Assembly (NCBI GenBank): GCA_964575955.1
Contig: CAZNTG010000012.1
Span: 1-26,990 of the forward strand
Direction of reading: 5' to 3'
Origin: an uncultured Thermoproteaceae archaeon
Lineage (GTDB): Archaea; Thermoproteota; Thermoprotei; Thermoproteales; Thermocladiaceae
DNA: 26,990 nt
The translations under genes were made by a program, and so were the position numbers. The notes beneath the pieces are model-generated. The model was not told the DNA's origin. It worked only from the letters and a program-made list of their open reading frames with translations, and searched no databases. Shown here piece after piece: positions 13,929 to 19,173 of the stretch (position 1 is the stretch's first letter; each line of letters opens with the position of its first letter).

Positions 13929-14738
13929 ATGATGTATATGATAGTAAAGATAATATTACTAATACTCACAGGTATAGCTGCAGGTATTGTAGGTGGTTTT
14001 CTAGGTATCGGTGGTTGTGTAATAATGCTTCCAGCACTAGTATTTCTATTTGGATATTCAGTACCTGTAGCTATAGGTACAACAATTACAGCAGTCATAG
14101 TTACTGCAAGTTCAGGTGCTGCAGCTCATATAAGATTGAAAAATGTAGACTATAAGACTGTGAAGATTGTTGCAATATCTGGAGCTATAGGTTCTGCTGT
14201 TGGTTCAATAATATTTATGTATATTTGGAAACAGACATGGCTTCTAGATCTAATTCTTGGAGGTGCATTTCTATATGTAGCAGTCAGGATGGTGTATGAA
14301 GGATTGAAGAGGGGTAAACTACCTGAGAAAGTTGGTAAAGAAGTTCCTGGTGGCGTAATATCTAAATCTTTGATAGGCTTCTTCATAGGTATAATATCTG
14401 GAATTGTTGGACTTGGAGGAGGTTATGCACTAGTACCAGCATTCATATACATACTAGGATCACCTGTAAAGATTGCTGTAGGAACATCATTACCATCATT
14501 CATATCTATAGCTGTTGTAAGTGCAGGATTTAAAATGTGGCAACATCTTGTAGATCTAGTAGCAGCTGCATGTCTAGGAGGTGGTACAGCTCTAGGTGCT
14601 TGGATTGGTGCATGGCTAGTACCTAGATCACCTGTATGGATTATAAGGCTAGTATTTGGATTTGTATTTCTATTCGTGGCTTTAGAATTCATATTTAAAG
14701 GACTACACCCATTCATACATCACATAGTTATAGTTTAA
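13929..14738 (+). CDS. TSUP / TauE-SafE family sulfur-compound transporter
   Basis: Duplicated GIGGC..LP / GLGGG..VP motifs, AIGT / AVGTS, about 8 TM segments. Confidence 0.9.
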   Translation: MMYMIVKIILLILTGIAAGIVGGFLGIGGCVIMLPALVFLFGYSVPVAIGTTITAVIVTASSGAAAHIRLKNVDYKTVKIVAISGAIGSAVGSIIFMYIWKQTWLLDLILGGAFLYVAVRMVYEGLKRGKLPEKVGKEVPGGVISKSLIGFFIGIISGIVGLGGGYALVPAFIYILGSPVKIAVGTSLPSFISIAVVSAGFKMWQHLVDLVAAACLGGGTALGAWIGAWLVPRSPVWIIRLVFGFVFLFVALEFIFKGLHPFIHHIVIV

Positions 14739-14739
14739 A

Positions 14740-15495
14740 CTATCTAAAAAGCCAATCTTCTCTTGGCATAACTACATCATTTATTGAACATTCTTCACAC
14801 TTCTCATATTCTAAACCTCTAACTATGACTACAGGTATACCTTCATCACCTTGACCCATAACTAGCTCTGCAGCTGCTGCAATCTCATCAACAATACATA
14901 TACTTGTCCTAGTCATCTCATATCCATACCTATCTCTCCTACCTACATAACTTCTAAATGGTCTAATACCCGAAATACCAATTGCAAAATTTACAGCACC
15001 TCTCCTAAATGGTCTACCACACGTATCTGTAATAATTACAGCAACATCTCTACCAGTCAACTCTCTAATTCTAAATCTAACACGTCTAGCAGATTCATCA
15101 GGATTTTTAGGAAGTAGTGCAACTCTAACACCAGAACCATCAACATTAGAGAAATCAACACCAGAATTACCACAAACAATACCTCTAGTGAAAGTAATTA
15201 ATAGACCAGACTTAACCTTCAAAACTTCTCCCTCTCTAATAATAACTTCAACAAGTCTAGGATCTAAATTACATAATTTAGAAATCTCATAAGCCTGAGT
15301 ACTAGGTTTAACATCTCTCAAATCAATAATTAAACCTTCAGCTTTTGATATAATCTTACTAGCAATAACAATAATATCATTATCAAGAATATCAATACCA
15401 CACCTCCTACAAGATTCAACAATCAATAAACCAACATCATCTCCATGCTTAACATCAGGAAAGTCAAAGATAGGAATAATCTCAACCTTCCTCAC
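14740..15495 (-). CDS. cofE: Coenzyme F420-0:L-glutamate ligase
   Basis: SKIISKAEG, NSGVDFSN, LLPKNPD.SA, ITDT.GRPFR.G, DEIAAAA.LVMG. GTG start at 15495 inferred. Confidence 0.9.
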   Translation of the reverse strand: MRKVEIIPIFDFPDVKHGDDVGLLIVESCRRCGIDILDNDIIVIASKIISKAEGLIIDLRDVKPSTQAYEISKLCNLDPRLVEVIIREGEVLKVKSGLLITFTRGIVCGNSGVDFSNVDGSGVRVALLPKNPDESARRVRFRIRELTGRDVAVIITDTCGRPFRRGAVNFAIGISGIRPFRSYVGRRDRYGYEMTRTSICIVDEIAAAAELVMGQGDEGIPVVIVRGLEYEKCEECSINDVVMPREDWLFR

Positions 15496-15560
15496 ACACG
15501 TAAAAAAACAGTATGAAAAAATCAAAATTAACACAGTAAGTATAGAAAACCTACAAGTTC

Positions 15561-15574
15561 AGAAAAGTATAAAT
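15561..15574 (+). promoter_or_regulatory. BRE/TATA promoter of the wHTH gene (probably leaderless)
   Basis: AGAAAAGTATAAAT about 24 bp upstream of ATG 15598. Confidence 0.5.
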
Positions 15575-15597
15575 TTCAGACAAAACATAACTACAAC

Positions 15598-15939
15598 ATG
15601 AATAAAGGTACTGAAAAACTATTCGGTACAGAAGTCGAAGCATTCCTAGGATTGAGATATACAAGAATGCTAGTAAGACTATTAAAAGAAATAGAAAATT
15701 TTGAAAAAGTTAAAAGTAGACCACCATACACAAGAGAAATACTATCAATAATAAAAACATGGACACACGGACACTACATACTAACACTAGCAGAATCATT
15801 AGGATTCATAGAAAGATATGAAGGATATCTAATAAGAAAGAAAGCAAAAATAAAAGTAACATTCAACAAAATAACAGAACTAGGAAGACAATTCATAGAA
15901 ATATACAAACCAATAGAAGAAACAAAAGAAGCAGAATAA
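15598..15939 (+). CDS. Small winged-helix DNA-binding protein
   Basis: Helix-turn-helix then LAESLGFIER, a basic wing and ITELGRQF, typical of MarR/PadR-like wHTH ends. Confidence 0.7.
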   Translation: MNKGTEKLFGTEVEAFLGLRYTRMLVRLLKEIENFEKVKSRPPYTREILSIIKTWTHGHYILTLAESLGFIERYEGYLIRKKAKIKVTFNKITELGRQFIEIYKPIEETKEAE

Positions 15940-15984
15940 AAATACTCAAAGACAGGAAAATCAAACCCTGAATTTATTATACAG

Positions 15985-16086
15985 GGGGCGTTACTAATTT
16001 TTGGTAACACCCCTCAAGAATGTTAGAATGTGTAAAAACCTGATGCAATAATCATCAGAAATTCCAATTTCAATCCTCTTTTTGAG
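15985..16086 (+). repeat. Left arm of a perfect 102-bp inverted repeat
   Basis: GGGGCGTTACTAA...CCAATTTCAATCCTCTTTTTGAG is the base-for-base reverse complement of 17327-17428. Confidence 0.97.
16034..16058 (-). terminator. Candidate pre-crRNA terminator (hairpin + U tract)
   Basis: Minus strand reads CTGATG-attattg-CATCAG-G-TTTTT just after the trailer repeat; identical copy on + at 17355-17379. Confidence 0.5.
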
Positions 16087-17115
16087 ATTCTCGACAATGC
16101 ACATGTCAACACTGGTGGAGGCGTAGAGTGGCTCCTTTCAATCCTCTTTTTGAGATTCAGCATATGCAGACTCCAAGATACGTGAATACCGTGCAACAGA
16201 TGCTTTCAATCCTCTTTTTGAGATTCTGATGCAGGATGAAAAACTTTGGACATCAGAGATTGATCTTGACTTTCAATCCTCTTTTTGAGATTCCTCTGTG
16301 TTGGACTGTACGTGAAGTAGACCAAGTCATAAGTTTTCTTTCAATCCTCTTTTTGAGATTCCAAGAGTACATAGACAGGTTGACAGTGTTTAATGATAGT
16401 TGTGCGTTGTTCTTTCAATCCTCTTTTTGAGATTCGGATACTTCAGACAGCACTCATATACGTGCTCTACAGCTGATGATCTTTCAATCCTCTTTTTGAG
16501 ATTCGAGGATTGAGGCAATGCAGTTCATTGAGGCTTGTAAATCAATCTTTCAATCCTCTTTTTGAGATTCGGAACATTGTCGTGGGGAATAACTTTTGCA
16601 AGCACAAATGCCTTTCAATCCTCTTTTTGAGATTCCCCCGTCTCGGGACTGTGCACTGTGGAGGACATGTGGGACACCTGCTTTCAATCCTCTTTTTGAG
16701 ATTCAGAGTTTTTGGACAAGTATGGAGTCTAGAAAGTTGTGGAGGCTTTCAATCCTCTTTTTGAGATTCGATTAGATGATGATAACATTGTCATAAGAAC
16801 ATCTCAACCTACTTTCAATCCTCTTTTTGAGATTCACTGAATTATTAGAGTACATAGCAAAGAAAGACGGTGAAAGTGAGTCTTTCAATCCTCTTTTTGA
16901 GATTCAACTTTTAATGCTATTAATCAAACAATTTTTGGGAAGTCTTATGTCTTTCAATCCTCTTTTTGAGATTCAATTATACATGATGAGTTTTTACTAG
17001 GCTGATACATGATGAGGACTTTCAATCCTCTTTTTGAGATTCCGTGTCTAAGAACGTCGTTAGAAATCGTAACACCGTCGAAAGTTACGTACTTTCAATC
17101 CTCTTTTTGAGATTC
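16067..17115 (-). CRISPR. CRISPR array: 16 repeats (24 bp, GAATCTCAAAAAGAGGATTGAAAG on -) and 15 spacers of 41-50 bp
   Basis: Repeats start at 16067, 16135, 16203, 16270, 16338, 16412, 16481, 16547, 16612, 16681, 16746, 16812, 16882, 16951, 17019, 17092. The ATTGAAAG handle, the right-hand leader and the mutated left terminal repeat fix the orientation. Confidence 0.99.
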
Positions 17116-17175
17116 TGTTTTCTTGTTTTTTCTGTTTGTTTTTGTTTTGTGTTTTTTCTTAAGTTTTTCCTATTC
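17116..17175 (-). promoter_or_regulatory. CRISPR leader with BRE/TATA
   Basis: Minus strand reads GGAAAAACTTAAG followed by an A-rich tract running into the first repeat. Confidence 0.8.
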
Positions 17176-17215
17176 TACCATTAGAACATCCATAACTCAG
17201 CCCTAAACCATAATA

Positions 17216-17346
17216 GAGACTTCCAAAGAACAATTGAAAATGTTATTATGTGTCAAGTCCGTGAGAAGAAGAGCTACATGAAGGATATTGAGCCTGAGCC
17301 ATTTCTCAGATTCATCTTCATGAAACCTCAAAAAGAGGATTGAAAT
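17216..17346 (+). CRISPR. Degenerate, oppositely oriented mini-array / solitary repeat unit
   Basis: AAACCTCAAAAAGAGGATTGAAAT (17323-46) is 21/24 identical to the repeat. A weaker repeat-like GAGACTTCCAAAGAACAATTGAAAA lies at 17216-40. Confidence 0.5.
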
Positions 17347-17428
17347 TGGAATTTCTGATGATTATTGCATCAGGTTTTTACACATTCTAACATTCTTGAG
17401 GGGTGTTACCAAAAATTAGTAACGCCCC
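17327..17428 (-). repeat. Right arm of a perfect 102-bp inverted repeat
   Basis: Exact reverse complement of 15985-16086. Confidence 0.97.
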
Positions 17429-17460
17429 TTAGCTTTAGTAGTTTTGTATTCCTGAACCTG

Positions 17461-18531
17461 TCATTCTACTTTTGGTTTTACTTCTCTTATCTGTCTTTCT
17501 ATTTTTCTTATTTTGTTTTGTAGTAGTACTATTCTTGAGTCTAGGCTTTCATCTACTATTTCATATCTTTCTACTTCTCTATTTAGCTCTTTTATGAGTT
17601 TTTTTGTCCATTCTTTTACTTCTTCATGTTTTAACATTCCTTCTCTACCTATCTTGTATAGTGAGTATCCTAGACTCATGTAGCTTTTTACTTCTATGAA
17701 GTGTGGGTTTGCTTTTTTTATTAATTCTGCAAATTCTTGTATGTATTTTTCATCTGTGTTTAATCCTTTTATTAATGTTAATCTTATTACTGTTCTTGTC
17801 TTTATTGTTGATAGTAGTTCTAGACTTTTATTGAAGTCTTTCCATGCATTTTCTCTATTTAGTATTGGTATGTGAATTTTCTTATATAGTTCCTCGTTTG
17901 GTGCTGTTAATGATAGGTATAGTTGTGTTGGTAGTGCATCTTCTCTATCCATCTTCTCTATCATTTCAGGTACTCTACCATTAGTTACTACAAATATTGA
18001 TCTTATGTTTGGTTGTTGTCTAAGCTCTATTATTAATTCTGGAAGTTTTGGATATAGACATGGCTCTCCTGATAGTGATATTGCCCAGTGTGTTGGTTTT
18101 AATGCTTCTTCAACTCTCTCACGTGTACATTTTGGATGTCCAAAATATCCTGATAGTAGTCTTCTCCTCTCTTTTAATATTCCTTCAATAATTTCTTTAG
18201 GATCATACACTTCTTCAGGTTTTGGTATGTAGTAGTCGTATGATTCTGTAGGTCTCCAACAGTATATACACTTGTTTAAGCATATCATACCTATTGGAGA
18301 CATCTCTACACACCTATGAGAACCTCCATATGGTGCTCCATAGAACTTAACTTTATAACAACTTCTAAGATCTGTAAGACTTCTCTTAGTCCAATGACAT
18401 AGTTCTACTGTTGCATGTTTCCAAACACCATAGCCAGCTTTTATTAGACTTTTAGCAAATTCTGGACTAATACAAAGTTTTCCATTTTCATCAAATATGT
18501 GATATCTCAAACTTACTGTTGATACTTCCAT
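17461..18531 (-). CDS. taw1: tRNA 4-demethylwyosine synthase (radical SAM)
   Basis: H.TVELCHWTK, CYKVKFYG, SHRCVEMSP, CLNKCIYCWRP, HWAISLSGEP, IEVKSYM..GYS. Confidence 0.95.
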   Translation of the reverse strand: MEVSTVSLRYHIFDENGKLCISPEFAKSLIKAGYGVWKHATVELCHWTKRSLTDLRSCYKVKFYGAPYGGSHRCVEMSPIGMICLNKCIYCWRPTESYDYYIPKPEEVYDPKEIIEGILKERRRLLSGYFGHPKCTRERVEEALKPTHWAISLSGEPCLYPKLPELIIELRQQPNIRSIFVVTNGRVPEMIEKMDREDALPTQLYLSLTAPNEELYKKIHIPILNRENAWKDFNKSLELLSTIKTRTVIRLTLIKGLNTDEKYIQEFAELIKKANPHFIEVKSYMSLGYSLYKIGREGMLKHEEVKEWTKKLIKELNREVERYEIVDESLDSRIVLLQNKIRKIERQIREVKPKVE

Positions 18532-18573
18532 AGATTATTCATGTGTTAATTATCTTAAATATCTGCCTCTAAA

Positions 18574-19173
18574 ATGATTAATGACATGTTTAGAGGCTAT
18601 ATTGCTCCTAAAGTATATTTTAAATGTGTACTATGTGGTGAATGTTGTAAAAGATATTGGATACCTATAACTCATGTTGATTTATTGAGAATTTATAAAA
18701 ACACAGGTCTAGAACCTCTAAACTTTATAACATTCTTTAAGAAAGATATGACTACAGGTTGGGACTATCCAACAATTAAGTTTGAAGATGGTGAATACTA
18801 TATGATACTTGCAAAAAGACCTGATGGATCATGCATATTTAATAAGTATGTTAATGATAGATTGATATGTAAGATACATAAATTTAAACCACTAGTATGT
18901 AGATTCTACCCATTCATATACTGGATTGAGAATGATATTGTTAAATTTGAAATACTTGACAAAGCTATAAACTACTGTCCAGGTATTGGTATTGGTCCAG
19001 TACATGATTTTGAAGTTGAGTATAAAGCAGTTATTGAGATTAGGAAAGCTAAGGAGGAGTATTCTAGAATTGTTAGTAAGTGGAATAGTCTTGTAGATAA
19101 GGGTATTGTAAATCCAACACCTGAATCATTTATTAGATTTATTTTAAATACTGTAAGTCTAGATGAAGTTTAG
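18574..19173 (+). CDS. YkgJ family Cys-cluster (CxxCxxCC) protein
   Basis: FKCVLCGECC, CIF, CKIHKFKPLVCRFYPF, CPGIG. Confidence 0.88.
   Translation: MINDMFRGYIAPKVYFKCVLCGECCKRYWIPITHVDLLRIYKNTGLEPLNFITFFKKDMTTGWDYPTIKFEDGEYYMILAKRPDGSCIFNKYVNDRLICKIHKFKPLVCRFYPFIYWIENDIVKFEILDKAINYCPGIGIGPVHDFEVEYKAVIEIRKAKEEYSRIVSKWNSLVDKGIVNPTPESFIRFILNTVSLDEV

What the first reader, a model, noticed from the sequence alone, without database searches (positions are those of the whole stretch)
15985..17428. CRISPR array packaged between perfect 102-bp inverted repeats: candidate mobile or invertible array cassette
Seen: 15985-16086 and 17327-17428 are exact reverse complements. They enclose the array and leader, contain no cas or transposase gene, and sit between two convergent genes. 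The inner 20 bp of each arm is the CRISPR repeat itself. Established: ordinary arrays are leader-repeats-trailer without terminal inverted repeats, and repeats have been proposed to derive from casposon ends/targets. Inference: this is (a) a MITE-like non-autonomous element that moves immune memory using a transposase or Cas1-type integrase in trans, (b) an invertible 1.24-kb segment, or (c) two back-to-back arrays with a recently duplicated trailer. Perfect identity implies recent origin or active homogenisation.
Basis: partly seen in the sequence, partly recalled or inferred. Interest (0 to 1): 0.92.

Follow-up and report, generated by a model that had tools for sequence, protein, structure and literature searches.

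The report
CRISPR array with inverted duplicated trailer
An ordinary stand-alone archaeal CRISPR array has had its far end (last repeat plus terminator-bearing trailer) copied in reverse orientation to the other side of its leader, which gives a real 102-base perfect inverted repeat but shows no sign of being a mobile element.

Summary
Arms 15985-16086 and 17327-17428 are exact reverse complements (105 nt with one mismatch). They enclose a 16-repeat array and its leader, between convergent wHTH and taw1 genes. In unitigs of a public run the 102-nt arm has twice the depth of its flanks and all four junctions exist. That run is probably the source sample.

Each arm holds three parts: the terminal repeat, a hairpin plus T5 terminator-like site that faces outward, and an outer palindrome. 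The palindrome is not a transposon tip. A similar one lies beside every wHTH-family gene I examined, in this genome and in relatives. The left arm is therefore native sequence and the right arm is the derived copy.

I found no target-site duplication and no complete further copy of the arm in any collection searched. No recombinase or transposase lies in the window. Only 1 of 24 arrays surveyed has flanking inverted repeats. The cas genes (type I-A) lie on another contig beside an array with the same repeat and a homologous leader.

Best reading: a lineage-specific inverted duplication in a variable defence hotspot. Homologous recombination between the arms could flip the segment, but I could not test this. 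Interest is low to moderate.

The parts
15598..15939 (+). wHTH-family gene (113 aa, P0001), reading towards the array
   Evidence: ORF. No Pfam or NCBIfam hit. The Atlas model resembles PadR/ArsR/HxlR/MarR winged-helix regulators at TM 0.63-0.67 (a lead only). Orthologue in conserved synteny in G004 and G001.
15985..16089 (.). Left arm of the inverted repeat (102 nt exact, 105 nt with one mismatch): outer palindrome, trailer and terminal repeat
   Evidence: Arm unitig at twice the flank depth in run X1.
15985..16013 (.). Outer palindrome (GC-rich ends, GTTAC-N9-GTAAC core); native 3' element of the wHTH gene
   Evidence: Folds as a 10-bp stem. Similar palindromes lie downstream of all 3 wHTH paralogues in G000 and beside homologues in G001, G002, G004, G006 and genus g5.
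16029..16059 (-). Terminator-like hairpin (7 bp) followed by TTTTT, at the inferred 3' end of the pre-crRNA
   Evidence: scan_promoters_terminators, (4 sites found against 0.8 expected in shuffles). Present in the MFE and centroid folds.
16067..17115 (-). CRISPR array: 16 repeats of 24 nt and 15 spacers of about 41-50 nt. The terminal repeat 16067-16090 has one mismatch. Transcription from the minus strand is inferred.
   Evidence: Leader homology lies on the high-coordinate side. A protospacer-like match in run X2 has CCA at the 5' side in the minus-strand sense.
17116..17239 (-). Leader; block 17136-17239 is 86.5% identical to the leader of the cas-adjacent array on contig C6
   Evidence: BLAST (C6:417446-417548). 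csa1-cas1-cas2 follow that leader.
17240..17322 (.). 83-nt unique segment of unknown origin between the leader and the inverted repeat copy
   Evidence: No match in the genome or in relatives' loci.
17323..17346 (+). Solitary CRISPR repeat in inverted orientation: 3 mismatches to the consensus, 2 to the left terminal repeat
17324..17428 (.). Right arm of the inverted repeat (the derived copy)
   Evidence: Relatives have no palindrome at the 3' side of taw1.
17354..17384 (+). Terminator-like hairpin plus TTTTT facing outward towards taw1
17400..17428 (.). Outer palindrome, right-arm copy
17461..18531 (-). taw1-like radical SAM wyosine-formation gene, reading towards the cassette
   Evidence: Pfam Wyosine_form 4.9e-17 and Radical_SAM 5e-15. 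73-85% nucleotide identity in 6 congeners.

Best explanation
The locus is a stand-alone CRISPR array with its own leader. It is served in trans by the type I-A cas cassette on contig C6, and it lies in a variable defence hotspot between a wHTH regulator gene and taw1.

The trailer end of the array was duplicated in inverted orientation to the far side of the leader. The copied unit is the terminal repeat, a hairpin plus T5 terminator, and the palindrome that normally follows wHTH-family genes.

The duplication is specific to this lineage and is either recent or kept identical by gene conversion. The sharp inner edge lies at or inside the repeat. Either the copied unit ended there, or later repeat-repeat recombination removed the shared spacers next to it.

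The likely consequences are passive. Both sides of the array now carry outward-facing and inward-facing oligo-T/hairpin sites, which would end the pre-crRNA and block read-through from the two convergent genes. The 102-bp arms also give homologous recombination a substrate to flip the 1.24-kb segment.

Shown: the anatomy, the copy number, the homology of leader and palindrome, and the absence of the arm elsewhere. Inferred: direction of transcription, terminator function, mechanism of duplication, and flipping.
For: - The inverted repeat is real: exact over 102 nt. The arm unitig has depth 37.1 against 18.6-20.9 for the four junction unitigs in X1.
- The array is an ordinary member of the genome's type I-A family. 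It has the same 24-nt repeat as C6:415191-417440. Its leader block is 86.5% identical to the leader that adjoins csa1-cas1-cas2. The rest of the cassette (cas3 HD, cas3 helicase, csa2/cas7, csa5, csa3, cas6, cas4) follows on C6.
- The left arm is native. A related palindrome lies downstream of all 3 wHTH paralogues in G000. One also lies downstream of the orthologue in G004 and G001 at the same syntenic spot.
- All 6 hairpin-only BLAST hits in other genomes lie within about 600 nt of a wHTH homologue.
- The 3' side of taw1 carries no such palindrome in any of the 7 relatives' loci I printed.
- The third, 87%-identical copy of the outer 55 nt (C6:523163-523217) marks a site where G002 and G004 still have a wHTH paralogue with its palindrome. 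That copy is therefore a vertical remnant, not a transposed element.
- The right-arm repeat matches the left terminal repeat at 22 of 24 positions, including the terminal variant base.
- Terminator-like sites lie in both arms, facing outward.
- The arrangement is a one-off: 1 of 24 arrays with both flanks available has a flanking inverted repeat (20 arrays in 8 relatives, 4 in G000).
Against: - No ancestral state, with the array but without the right arm, was found. The closest relatives available are only 73-85% identical in taw1, and none has an array here. The direction and age of the duplication therefore rest on the palindrome argument alone.
- The mechanism is not demonstrated.
- The 83 nt at 17240-17322 are unexplained.
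- In run X2 (another study) a unitig crosses the outer edge of the right arm unbroken, and the wHTH-side unitig stops at 15982. That population may have a different left end, which a simple model of one recent duplication does not predict.
- X1 is probably the sample the window was assembled from, so it is not fully independent support.
- Terminator and insulation roles are inferred from sequence only. No RNA data were available.
Confidence: 0.6

Rival explanations
1. Flip-flop segment. The 1.24-kb inner segment (array plus leader) exists in both orientations in the population. Homologous recombination between the 102-bp arms would invert it, or a site-specific recombinase acting on the outer palindromes would. 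The same exchanges would keep the arms identical. This is compatible with the duplication origin. The rival claim is that inversion is frequent or functional.
For: Perfect identity over 102 nt, while the older third copy of the outer 55 nt is only 87% identical. The k=31 graph is equally consistent with either orientation. The outer element is a 10-9-10 palindrome with an asymmetric centre, in opposite orientation in the two arms.
Against: No orientation-resolving read was seen. No recombinase lies in the window. The genome has no PF00589 hit, and its only two PF00239 hits lie on other contigs. The promoter-bearing leader and the whole array lie inside the segment, so flipping changes no obvious output. 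The palindrome is explained by its association with the wHTH genes.
Confidence: 0.25
2. Mobile cassette. The arms are terminal inverted repeats of a non-autonomous element that carries a CRISPR array and is moved in trans by a transposase or a Cas1-type integrase.
For: Long perfect terminal inverted repeats enclose cargo with no enzyme gene. The site is a variable hotspot that holds an AriA/AbiL-like ATPase system in relatives. Two Cas1 genes are in the genome.
Against: - No target-site duplication at the arm ends.
- No complete second copy of the arm in the genome, and none in 62 genomes of the order.
- 0 hits for exact words of the arm in metagenome, genome and viral contigs. No match for the whole cassette in phage or plasmid records.
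- The CRISPR repeat lies at the inner end of each arm, not at the tip.
- The tips are the wHTH-associated palindrome.
- Both Cas1 genes sit in csa1-cas1 operons next to leaders.
- No Y1 transposase was found.
Confidence: 0.04
3. Assembly artefact. The inverted repeat was created by mis-joining at CRISPR repeats or at the palindrome.
For: The genome is a 15-contig draft. CRISPR arrays and palindromes are classic trouble spots. X1 is probably the same data set as the assembly.
Against: All four junctions exist as k-mers and the arm has twice the flank depth in X1. In X2 (another study), unitigs of 17161-17356 and 17327-17902 abut at the inner edge with a 30-nt overlap, and the second runs unbroken across the arm and its outer edge into taw1. 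The shared CRISPR part is only 20 nt, too short to mislead usual assembly word sizes (inference).
Confidence: 0.05
4. Functional leader element. The inverted repeat copy, 207 nt upstream of the first repeat, acts as a docking motif for the Cas1-Cas2 integrase or for a repeat-binding protein. Alternatively it yields a crRNA-like RNA (8-nt handle plus trailer) from the plus strand.
For: Papers report that leader inverted-repeat motifs bind the type I-F integrase (10.1101/2023.05.26.542337, passages read) and that archaeal leaders carry motifs up to about 400-500 bp upstream (PMC13748974, passages read). The solitary repeat is nearly intact and is followed by a terminator-like site.
Against: The homologous cas-adjacent leader on C6 has no such copy. 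Its best repeat-like site matches 15 of 24 positions, at about chance level: windows with 15 or more matches make up 6e-4 of all genome windows, about 0.2 expected per leader. 0 of the 23 other arrays surveyed have a flanking inverted repeat of 400 nt or less away. No expression data were available.
Confidence: 0.06

Closest known systems
Stand-alone (orphan) CRISPR arrays served in trans by a type I-A cas cassette
   Same: 24-nt repeat identical to that of a cas-adjacent array. Homologous leader. 41-50-nt spacers. No adjacent cas genes.
   Different: The terminal repeat plus 81-nt trailer is present a second time, inverted, beyond the leader. None of the 23 other arrays examined has this.
Inverted duplications that flip by homologous recombination, and site-specific invertible switches such as Hin or fimS (named from recall)
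   Same: Perfect inverted repeats bracket a short segment.
   Different: No invertase gene is nearby. The promoter and the array are both inside the segment, so there is no on/off logic. No second orientation was observed.
MITEs and casposons
   Same: Terminal inverted repeats around cargo with no enzyme gene.
   Different: No target-site duplication, a single copy, the CRISPR repeat at the inner rather than the outer end, and no solo Cas1 or family B polymerase context.
Inverted-repeat motifs in CRISPR leaders that position the integrase (type I-F with IHF; Pyrococcus furiosus type I-B leader motifs)
   Same: A repeat-related inverted element lies a few hundred bases upstream of the first repeat (passages only).
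   Different: Here it is a 102-nt exact copy of the trailer end. It is absent from the paralogous leader in the same genome.
Solitary repeat units, mini-arrays and anti-repeats (the abstract of PMC10651486 on RNA anti-CRISPRs, seen in the listing; tracrRNA anti-repeats from recall)
   Same: A single CRISPR repeat outside the array, followed by a terminator-like site.
   Different: It is chromosomal and not in a virus. It is identical to the array's own terminal repeat and trailer. No type II or V genes are present.

Membership tests
CRISPR array (type I-A associated) | Regularly spaced identical direct repeats with unique spacers | tested here: met
   16 repeats at spacings of 65-74 nt. 15 reach the Rfam CRISPR-DR45 gathering score.
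CRISPR array (type I-A associated) | Leader at one end, homologous to the leader of a cas-linked array | tested here: met
   17136-17239 is 86.5% identical to C6:417446-417548, which adjoins csa1-cas1-cas2.
CRISPR array (type I-A associated) | Adjacent cas genes | tested here: not met
   No cas gene among the 27 window ORFs scanned with Pfam. The cas cassette is on contig C6. The array is therefore an orphan served in trans (inferred).
CRISPR array (type I-A associated) | Spacers that match foreign DNA beside a PAM | tested here: inconclusive
   One spacer (16505-16546) matches non-CRISPR DNA in run X2, with CCA on the 5' side in the minus-strand sense. That CCN is the type I-A PAM is recalled, not tested. 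The other spacers were not searched.
MITE / non-autonomous transposon | Terminal inverted repeats | tested here: met
   102 nt exact.
MITE / non-autonomous transposon | Target-site duplication flanking the ends | tested here: not met
   The bases outside the arms (…TACAG on the left, TTAGC… on the right) share no direct repeat.
MITE / non-autonomous transposon | Multiple copies in the genome or in relatives | tested here: not met
   Only the two arms plus one 55-nt partial copy in G000. No full arm in the other 61 of the 62 genomes of the order. 0 hits in three contig collections. No match in phage or plasmid records.
MITE / non-autonomous transposon | A cognate transposase bounded by the same ends | tested here: not met
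   The ends occur nowhere else. No PF01797 and no PF00589 hit. Two PF00239 genes lie on C3 and C6, with no arm-like sequence anywhere else in the genome.
MITE / non-autonomous transposon | An empty site in relatives | tested here: inconclusive
   G001 and G004 keep wHTH and taw1 as neighbours but hold a 2.2-kb ATPase cassette there. Other congeners have other genes beside taw1. No near-identical genome was available.
Casposon | A Cas1 casposase inside the element | tested here: not met
   No ORF of 80 aa or more between the arms, apart from one that runs across the repeats. Both Cas1 genes are in cas operons elsewhere.
Site-specific invertible segment | A recombinase gene next to or inside the segment | tested here: not met
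   No recombinase domain among the window ORFs scanned.
Site-specific invertible segment | Both orientations present in the population | not testable with these tools
   Only k=31 contigs could be laid, and the arm is 102 nt. The single read-laying run was used.

The most novel reading that the evidence does not exclude
The array is a flip-flop cassette bracketed by two operator palindromes of the neighbouring wHTH regulator. On this reading the protein, whose paralogues each carry their own palindrome variant, binds both ends. It would insulate or loop out the array. Recombination between the arms would switch which convergent gene (taw1 or wHTH) reads towards the leader. CRISPR expression would then be tied to a dedicated regulator and to segment orientation.
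Probability: 0.08. Interest if true: 0.6.

Novelty: new member of a known kind. Interest (0 to 1): 0.27.

Why it matters
If the arms had been transposon ends, this would have been a vehicle for moving immune memory between genomes. The evidence points the other way. The finding is instead a clean example of how local recombination reshapes the ends of CRISPR arrays.

It is also a caution: long inverted repeats around an array need not mean mobility, because here the outer tips are regulator-associated palindromes.

The more useful by-products are two. First, a wHTH gene family is consistently paired with a palindrome. Second, a hotspot holds a CRISPR array in one lineage and an AriA/AbiL-like ATPase system in its relatives.

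Tried and rejected
- Exact-word scans for the arm gave nothing. A 24-nt word from the palindrome found 0 stretches in metagenome contigs. A 22-nt word from the trailer found 0 in genome contigs and 0 in viral contigs. Exact words miss diverged copies.
- BLAST of the whole cassette against phage and plasmid records found no match.
- The search for related loci with taw1 in metagenome contigs gave 7 loci. None had a CRISPR repeat or the arm downstream of taw1.
- I tested a repeat-like motif in the leader (17217-17240, 14 of 24 matches; C6 homologue 15 of 24) as a possible remnant of a divergent array. I rejected it as near chance: 0.2% and 0.06% of all genome windows reach those scores.
- I searched the 83-nt segment 17240-17322 as DNA and in six frames against the genome and the relatives' loci. 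Nothing was found.
- I considered an IS200/IS605-type reading of the subterminal hairpins. No Y1 transposase was found and there is no family of such ends.
- I considered a C/D-box or other known RNA in the trailer. The Rfam gathering-score scan of the window gave only CRISPR-DR45.
- Runs X3 and X4 (small share) covered only the CRISPR repeats with other spacers. They say nothing about this locus.
- In X2, the missing cover of 15983-16009 and of most spacers could not be interpreted.
- Literature: four full-text searches listed no paper that describes an array flanked by an inverted copy of its own trailer. PMC4524480 uses 'inversion' for spacer order only (passages). Supplementary files were not opened.
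No earlier findings were used.
- No structure prediction, complex prediction or large protein search was run, because none would have changed the verdict.
Full report
**Observation**

The window holds an inverted repeat with arms 15985-16089 and 17324-17428 (105 nt, one mismatch, 1234 nt apart). Identity is exact over 15985-16086 against 17327-17428.

Between the arms lie 16 direct 24-nt repeats, starting at 16067 through 17092, with 15 spacers. Fifteen repeats reach the Rfam CRISPR-DR45 gathering score. The sixteenth is the terminal variant, with one mismatch. One more repeat copy lies at 17323-17346 in the opposite orientation, with 3 mismatches to the consensus and 2 to the left terminal repeat.

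The flanking genes converge on the cassette. A 113-aa wHTH-like ORF lies at 15598-15939 (+). A taw1-like radical-SAM/Wyosine_form ORF lies at 17461-18531 (-). No real ORF lies between the arms.

**Is it an assembly artefact?**

Logan contigs (k=31) of four public runs were laid on 14500-19000. Run X1 shares 0.92 of the words and is probably the source sample.

- The arm is a separate 102-nt unitig at depth 37.1.
- Its four neighbours have depths of 18.6-20.9, and each runs exactly 30 nt into the arm.

This is the signature of a true two-copy inverted repeat. It also means the orientation of the inner segment cannot be read from these data.

Run X2 comes from another study and shares 0.45 of the words. 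It carries the leader side, the inner junction, the whole right arm and taw1 (unitigs 17161-17356 and 17327-17902), with one base difference at 17269. It has almost none of the spacers. Its wHTH-side unitig stops at 15982, and its right-arm unitig is not broken at the outer edge of the arm. I could not decide whether that population has a different left end.

**What the array is**

The genome (1.52 Mb, 15 contigs; the window is the whole of contig C12) has two more arrays of this repeat family on contig C6:

- C6:415191-417440 has 34 copies of the same repeat.
- C6:429089-430743 has 25 copies of a variant repeat.

Between them lies a type I-A cassette: csa1, cas1, cas2, cas3 HD, cas3 helicase, two ORFs without a Pfam match, csa2/cas7, csa5, csa3, cas6 and cas4. 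The 104 nt to the right of the C12 array (17136-17239) are 86.5% identical to the sequence between the first C6 array and csa1. The leader is therefore on the high-coordinate side, and the array is read from the minus strand.

Two further points fit this direction. The repeat then ends in ATTGAAAG, which I recall as the 8-nt handle of this repeat class. Spacer 16505-16546 also has a non-CRISPR match in run X2 whose flank gives CCA at the 5' side in the minus-strand sense. That CCN is the type I-A PAM is recall.

A second repeat family (C2, C10, C14) and a second csa1-cas1 at the start of C8 also exist. Neither Cas1 is therefore solitary.

**Anatomy of the arm**

Reading outward from the array, each arm has three parts:

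1. The terminal repeat.
2. A 7-bp hairpin followed by TTTTT. This terminator-like site is found on the outward strand of both arms. Four such sites were found in 15500-17600, against 0.8 expected in shuffles.
3. A 29-nt palindrome with GC-rich ends and a GTTAC-N9-GTAAC core. It is present in the MFE and centroid folds.

**The outer palindrome belongs to the wHTH gene family**

In this genome the strict motif occurs only in the two arms, at C6:523192, and once more loosely at C6:104270. That is 4 hits, against 0.8 in shuffles.

The third copy is 87% identical to the outer 55 nt of the arm. It lies between a RIO-kinase-like gene and a macro-domain gene. In G002 and G004 the same intergenic spot holds a wHTH paralogue with its own palindrome. 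The G000 copy is therefore what remains after that gene was lost.

The other two wHTH paralogues of G000 (C6:272373-272657 and C9:135948-135715) each have a GTTTC-N9-GAAAC palindrome 150-190 nt downstream. The orthologue in G004 and G001 sits in the same cofE-wHTH-…-taw1 synteny and has a GCGTTAC…GTAACGC palindrome downstream.

A BLAST of the arm against 62 genomes of the order found only short hits to the palindrome itself. Six of those hits lie in other genomes, and all six are within about 600 nt of a wHTH homologue. I dropped a seventh short hit, L030, because it matched a different part of the query. In genus g5, two copies lie directly upstream of the homologue's start codon, like an operator.

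The protein has no Pfam, NCBIfam or PDB sequence match. Its Atlas model resembles PadR/ArsR/HxlR/MarR winged-helix regulators (a lead only).

The left arm's tip is therefore native to the 3' side of wHTH. The 3' side of taw1 has no palindrome in relatives. The right arm is the derived copy.

**Tests of mobility**

- The bases outside the arms show no target-site duplication.
- No complete further copy of the arm exists in the genome or in 62 genomes of the order.
- Exact words from the arm found nothing in metagenome, genome or viral contig collections. The cassette found nothing in phage or plasmid records.
- The 27 window ORFs scanned with Pfam are housekeeping genes or gave no match. None is a recombinase or transposase.
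- The genome gave no PF00589 and no PF01797 hit. It has two PF00239 genes, on other contigs. Completeness is 94.7%.

**Relatives and the hotspot**

In G001 and G004, wHTH and taw1 are still neighbours, but the interval holds about 2.2 kb. It carries a split AAA_15/AAA_21 ATPase whose best PADLOC matches are AriA and AbiLi, plus a 227-aa partner. No CRISPR repeat is there. The G002 contig starts inside the same ATPase gene.

G003, G005, G006, G008 and three metagenome contigs have other genes next to taw1. The spot is variable and rich in defence genes. No relative is close enough to give an empty site: taw1 is only 73-85% identical.

**Is a flanking inverted repeat usual?**

I located arrays with a simple word-spacing finder and compared 400-nt flanks, including the terminal repeats, on opposite strands. 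Of 24 arrays with both flanks available, only the C12 array has a flanking inverted repeat. Twenty of the arrays are in 8 relatives and 4 are in G000. I left out the arrays at the contig ends of C2 and C14.

**Interpretation**

The best-supported account is a lineage-specific inverted duplication of the trailer end of an orphan type I-A array. It is either recent or kept identical by gene conversion.

The identity stops inside or at the repeat. The right copy still matches the left terminal repeat at 22 of 24 positions. Either the copied unit ended at the repeat, or the two copies once shared more sequence and later repeat-repeat deletions removed it. Such deletions are the normal way arrays lose spacers.

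The likely effect is passive. Hairpin and oligo-T sites now face both ways on both sides of the array, between two convergent genes.

Homologous recombination between the 102-bp arms could flip the segment. I could not test this, and flipping would change no obvious output, because the promoter and the array lie inside together.

A role of the inverted repeat copy as a leader motif for the integrase is conceivable, given work on type I-F and Pyrococcus furiosus leaders (passages only). But the paralogous leader in the same genome lacks such a copy.

**Novelty**

Four full-text searches listed no description of an array flanked by an inverted copy of its own trailer. Even so, I regard this as a structural accident of a known kind of locus and not a new system.

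Noticed in passing
window 15598-16013; G000 C6:272373-272900 and C9:135350-135948; loci L019, L020, L025, L028, L029, L031-L034, L065: A wHTH protein family with no Pfam or NCBIfam match is consistently paired with a palindrome (GTTAC-N9-GTAAC or GTTTC-N9-GAAAC). The palindrome lies downstream of the gene in this genus. In genus g5 it occurs as two copies directly upstream of the start codon. It looks like a regulator with its own operator, and the half-sites change symmetrically between paralogues.
   Followed up: partly
G000 C6:523163-523217 (L036); L025 2760-3560; L065 2040-2840: The RIO-kinase/macro-domain intergenic region holds a wHTH paralogue plus palindrome in G002 and G004. In this genome only a 55-nt palindrome module remains there. 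It is 87% identical to the outer part of the arms.
   Followed up: yes
L019 1670-3950; L020 240-2427; L021 1-406: In three congeners the wHTH-taw1 interval holds an AAA_15/AAA_21 ATPase (best PADLOC matches AriA and AbiLi), split into two or three ORFs, plus a 227-aa partner of no known family. The site is therefore a defence hotspot with different cargo in different lineages. A homologue 47-49% identical lies at G000 C6:466393-468483.
   Followed up: partly
window 16505-16546: This spacer matches non-CRISPR DNA in run X2. Loose ends fall exactly at both spacer edges and the bin depth is 25.6. CCA lies at the 5' side in the minus-strand sense. It is probably a protospacer on a co-occurring virus or plasmid.
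   Followed up: no
window 15982 and 17327-17902 in run X2: In a second study's contigs the wHTH-side unitig ends 2 nt before the arm, and the right-arm unitig is not broken at its outer edge. That population may lack the left arm or have a different one. This is unresolved.
   Followed up: no
window 17240-17322: An 83-nt segment between the leader and the inverted repeat copy has no match anywhere searched. It looked less AT-rich than the leader (by eye, not computed). By eye it also contains a possible 32-codon frame that runs into the repeat.
   Followed up: partly
G000 C2:59749-60642, C10:17405-18215, C14:17660-18735, C8:1-2600: There is a second CRISPR repeat family with three arrays, two of them at contig ends. 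A second csa1-like gene and cas1 lie behind a matching leader at the start of C8. The C10 array is another orphan and has no flanking inverted repeat.
   Followed up: partly
window 17080 and 17082 in run X1: Two base variants, at about half depth, lie in the leader-proximal spacer. They may reflect strain micro-heterogeneity in the sample, or mis-laid contigs of other arrays.
   Followed up: no
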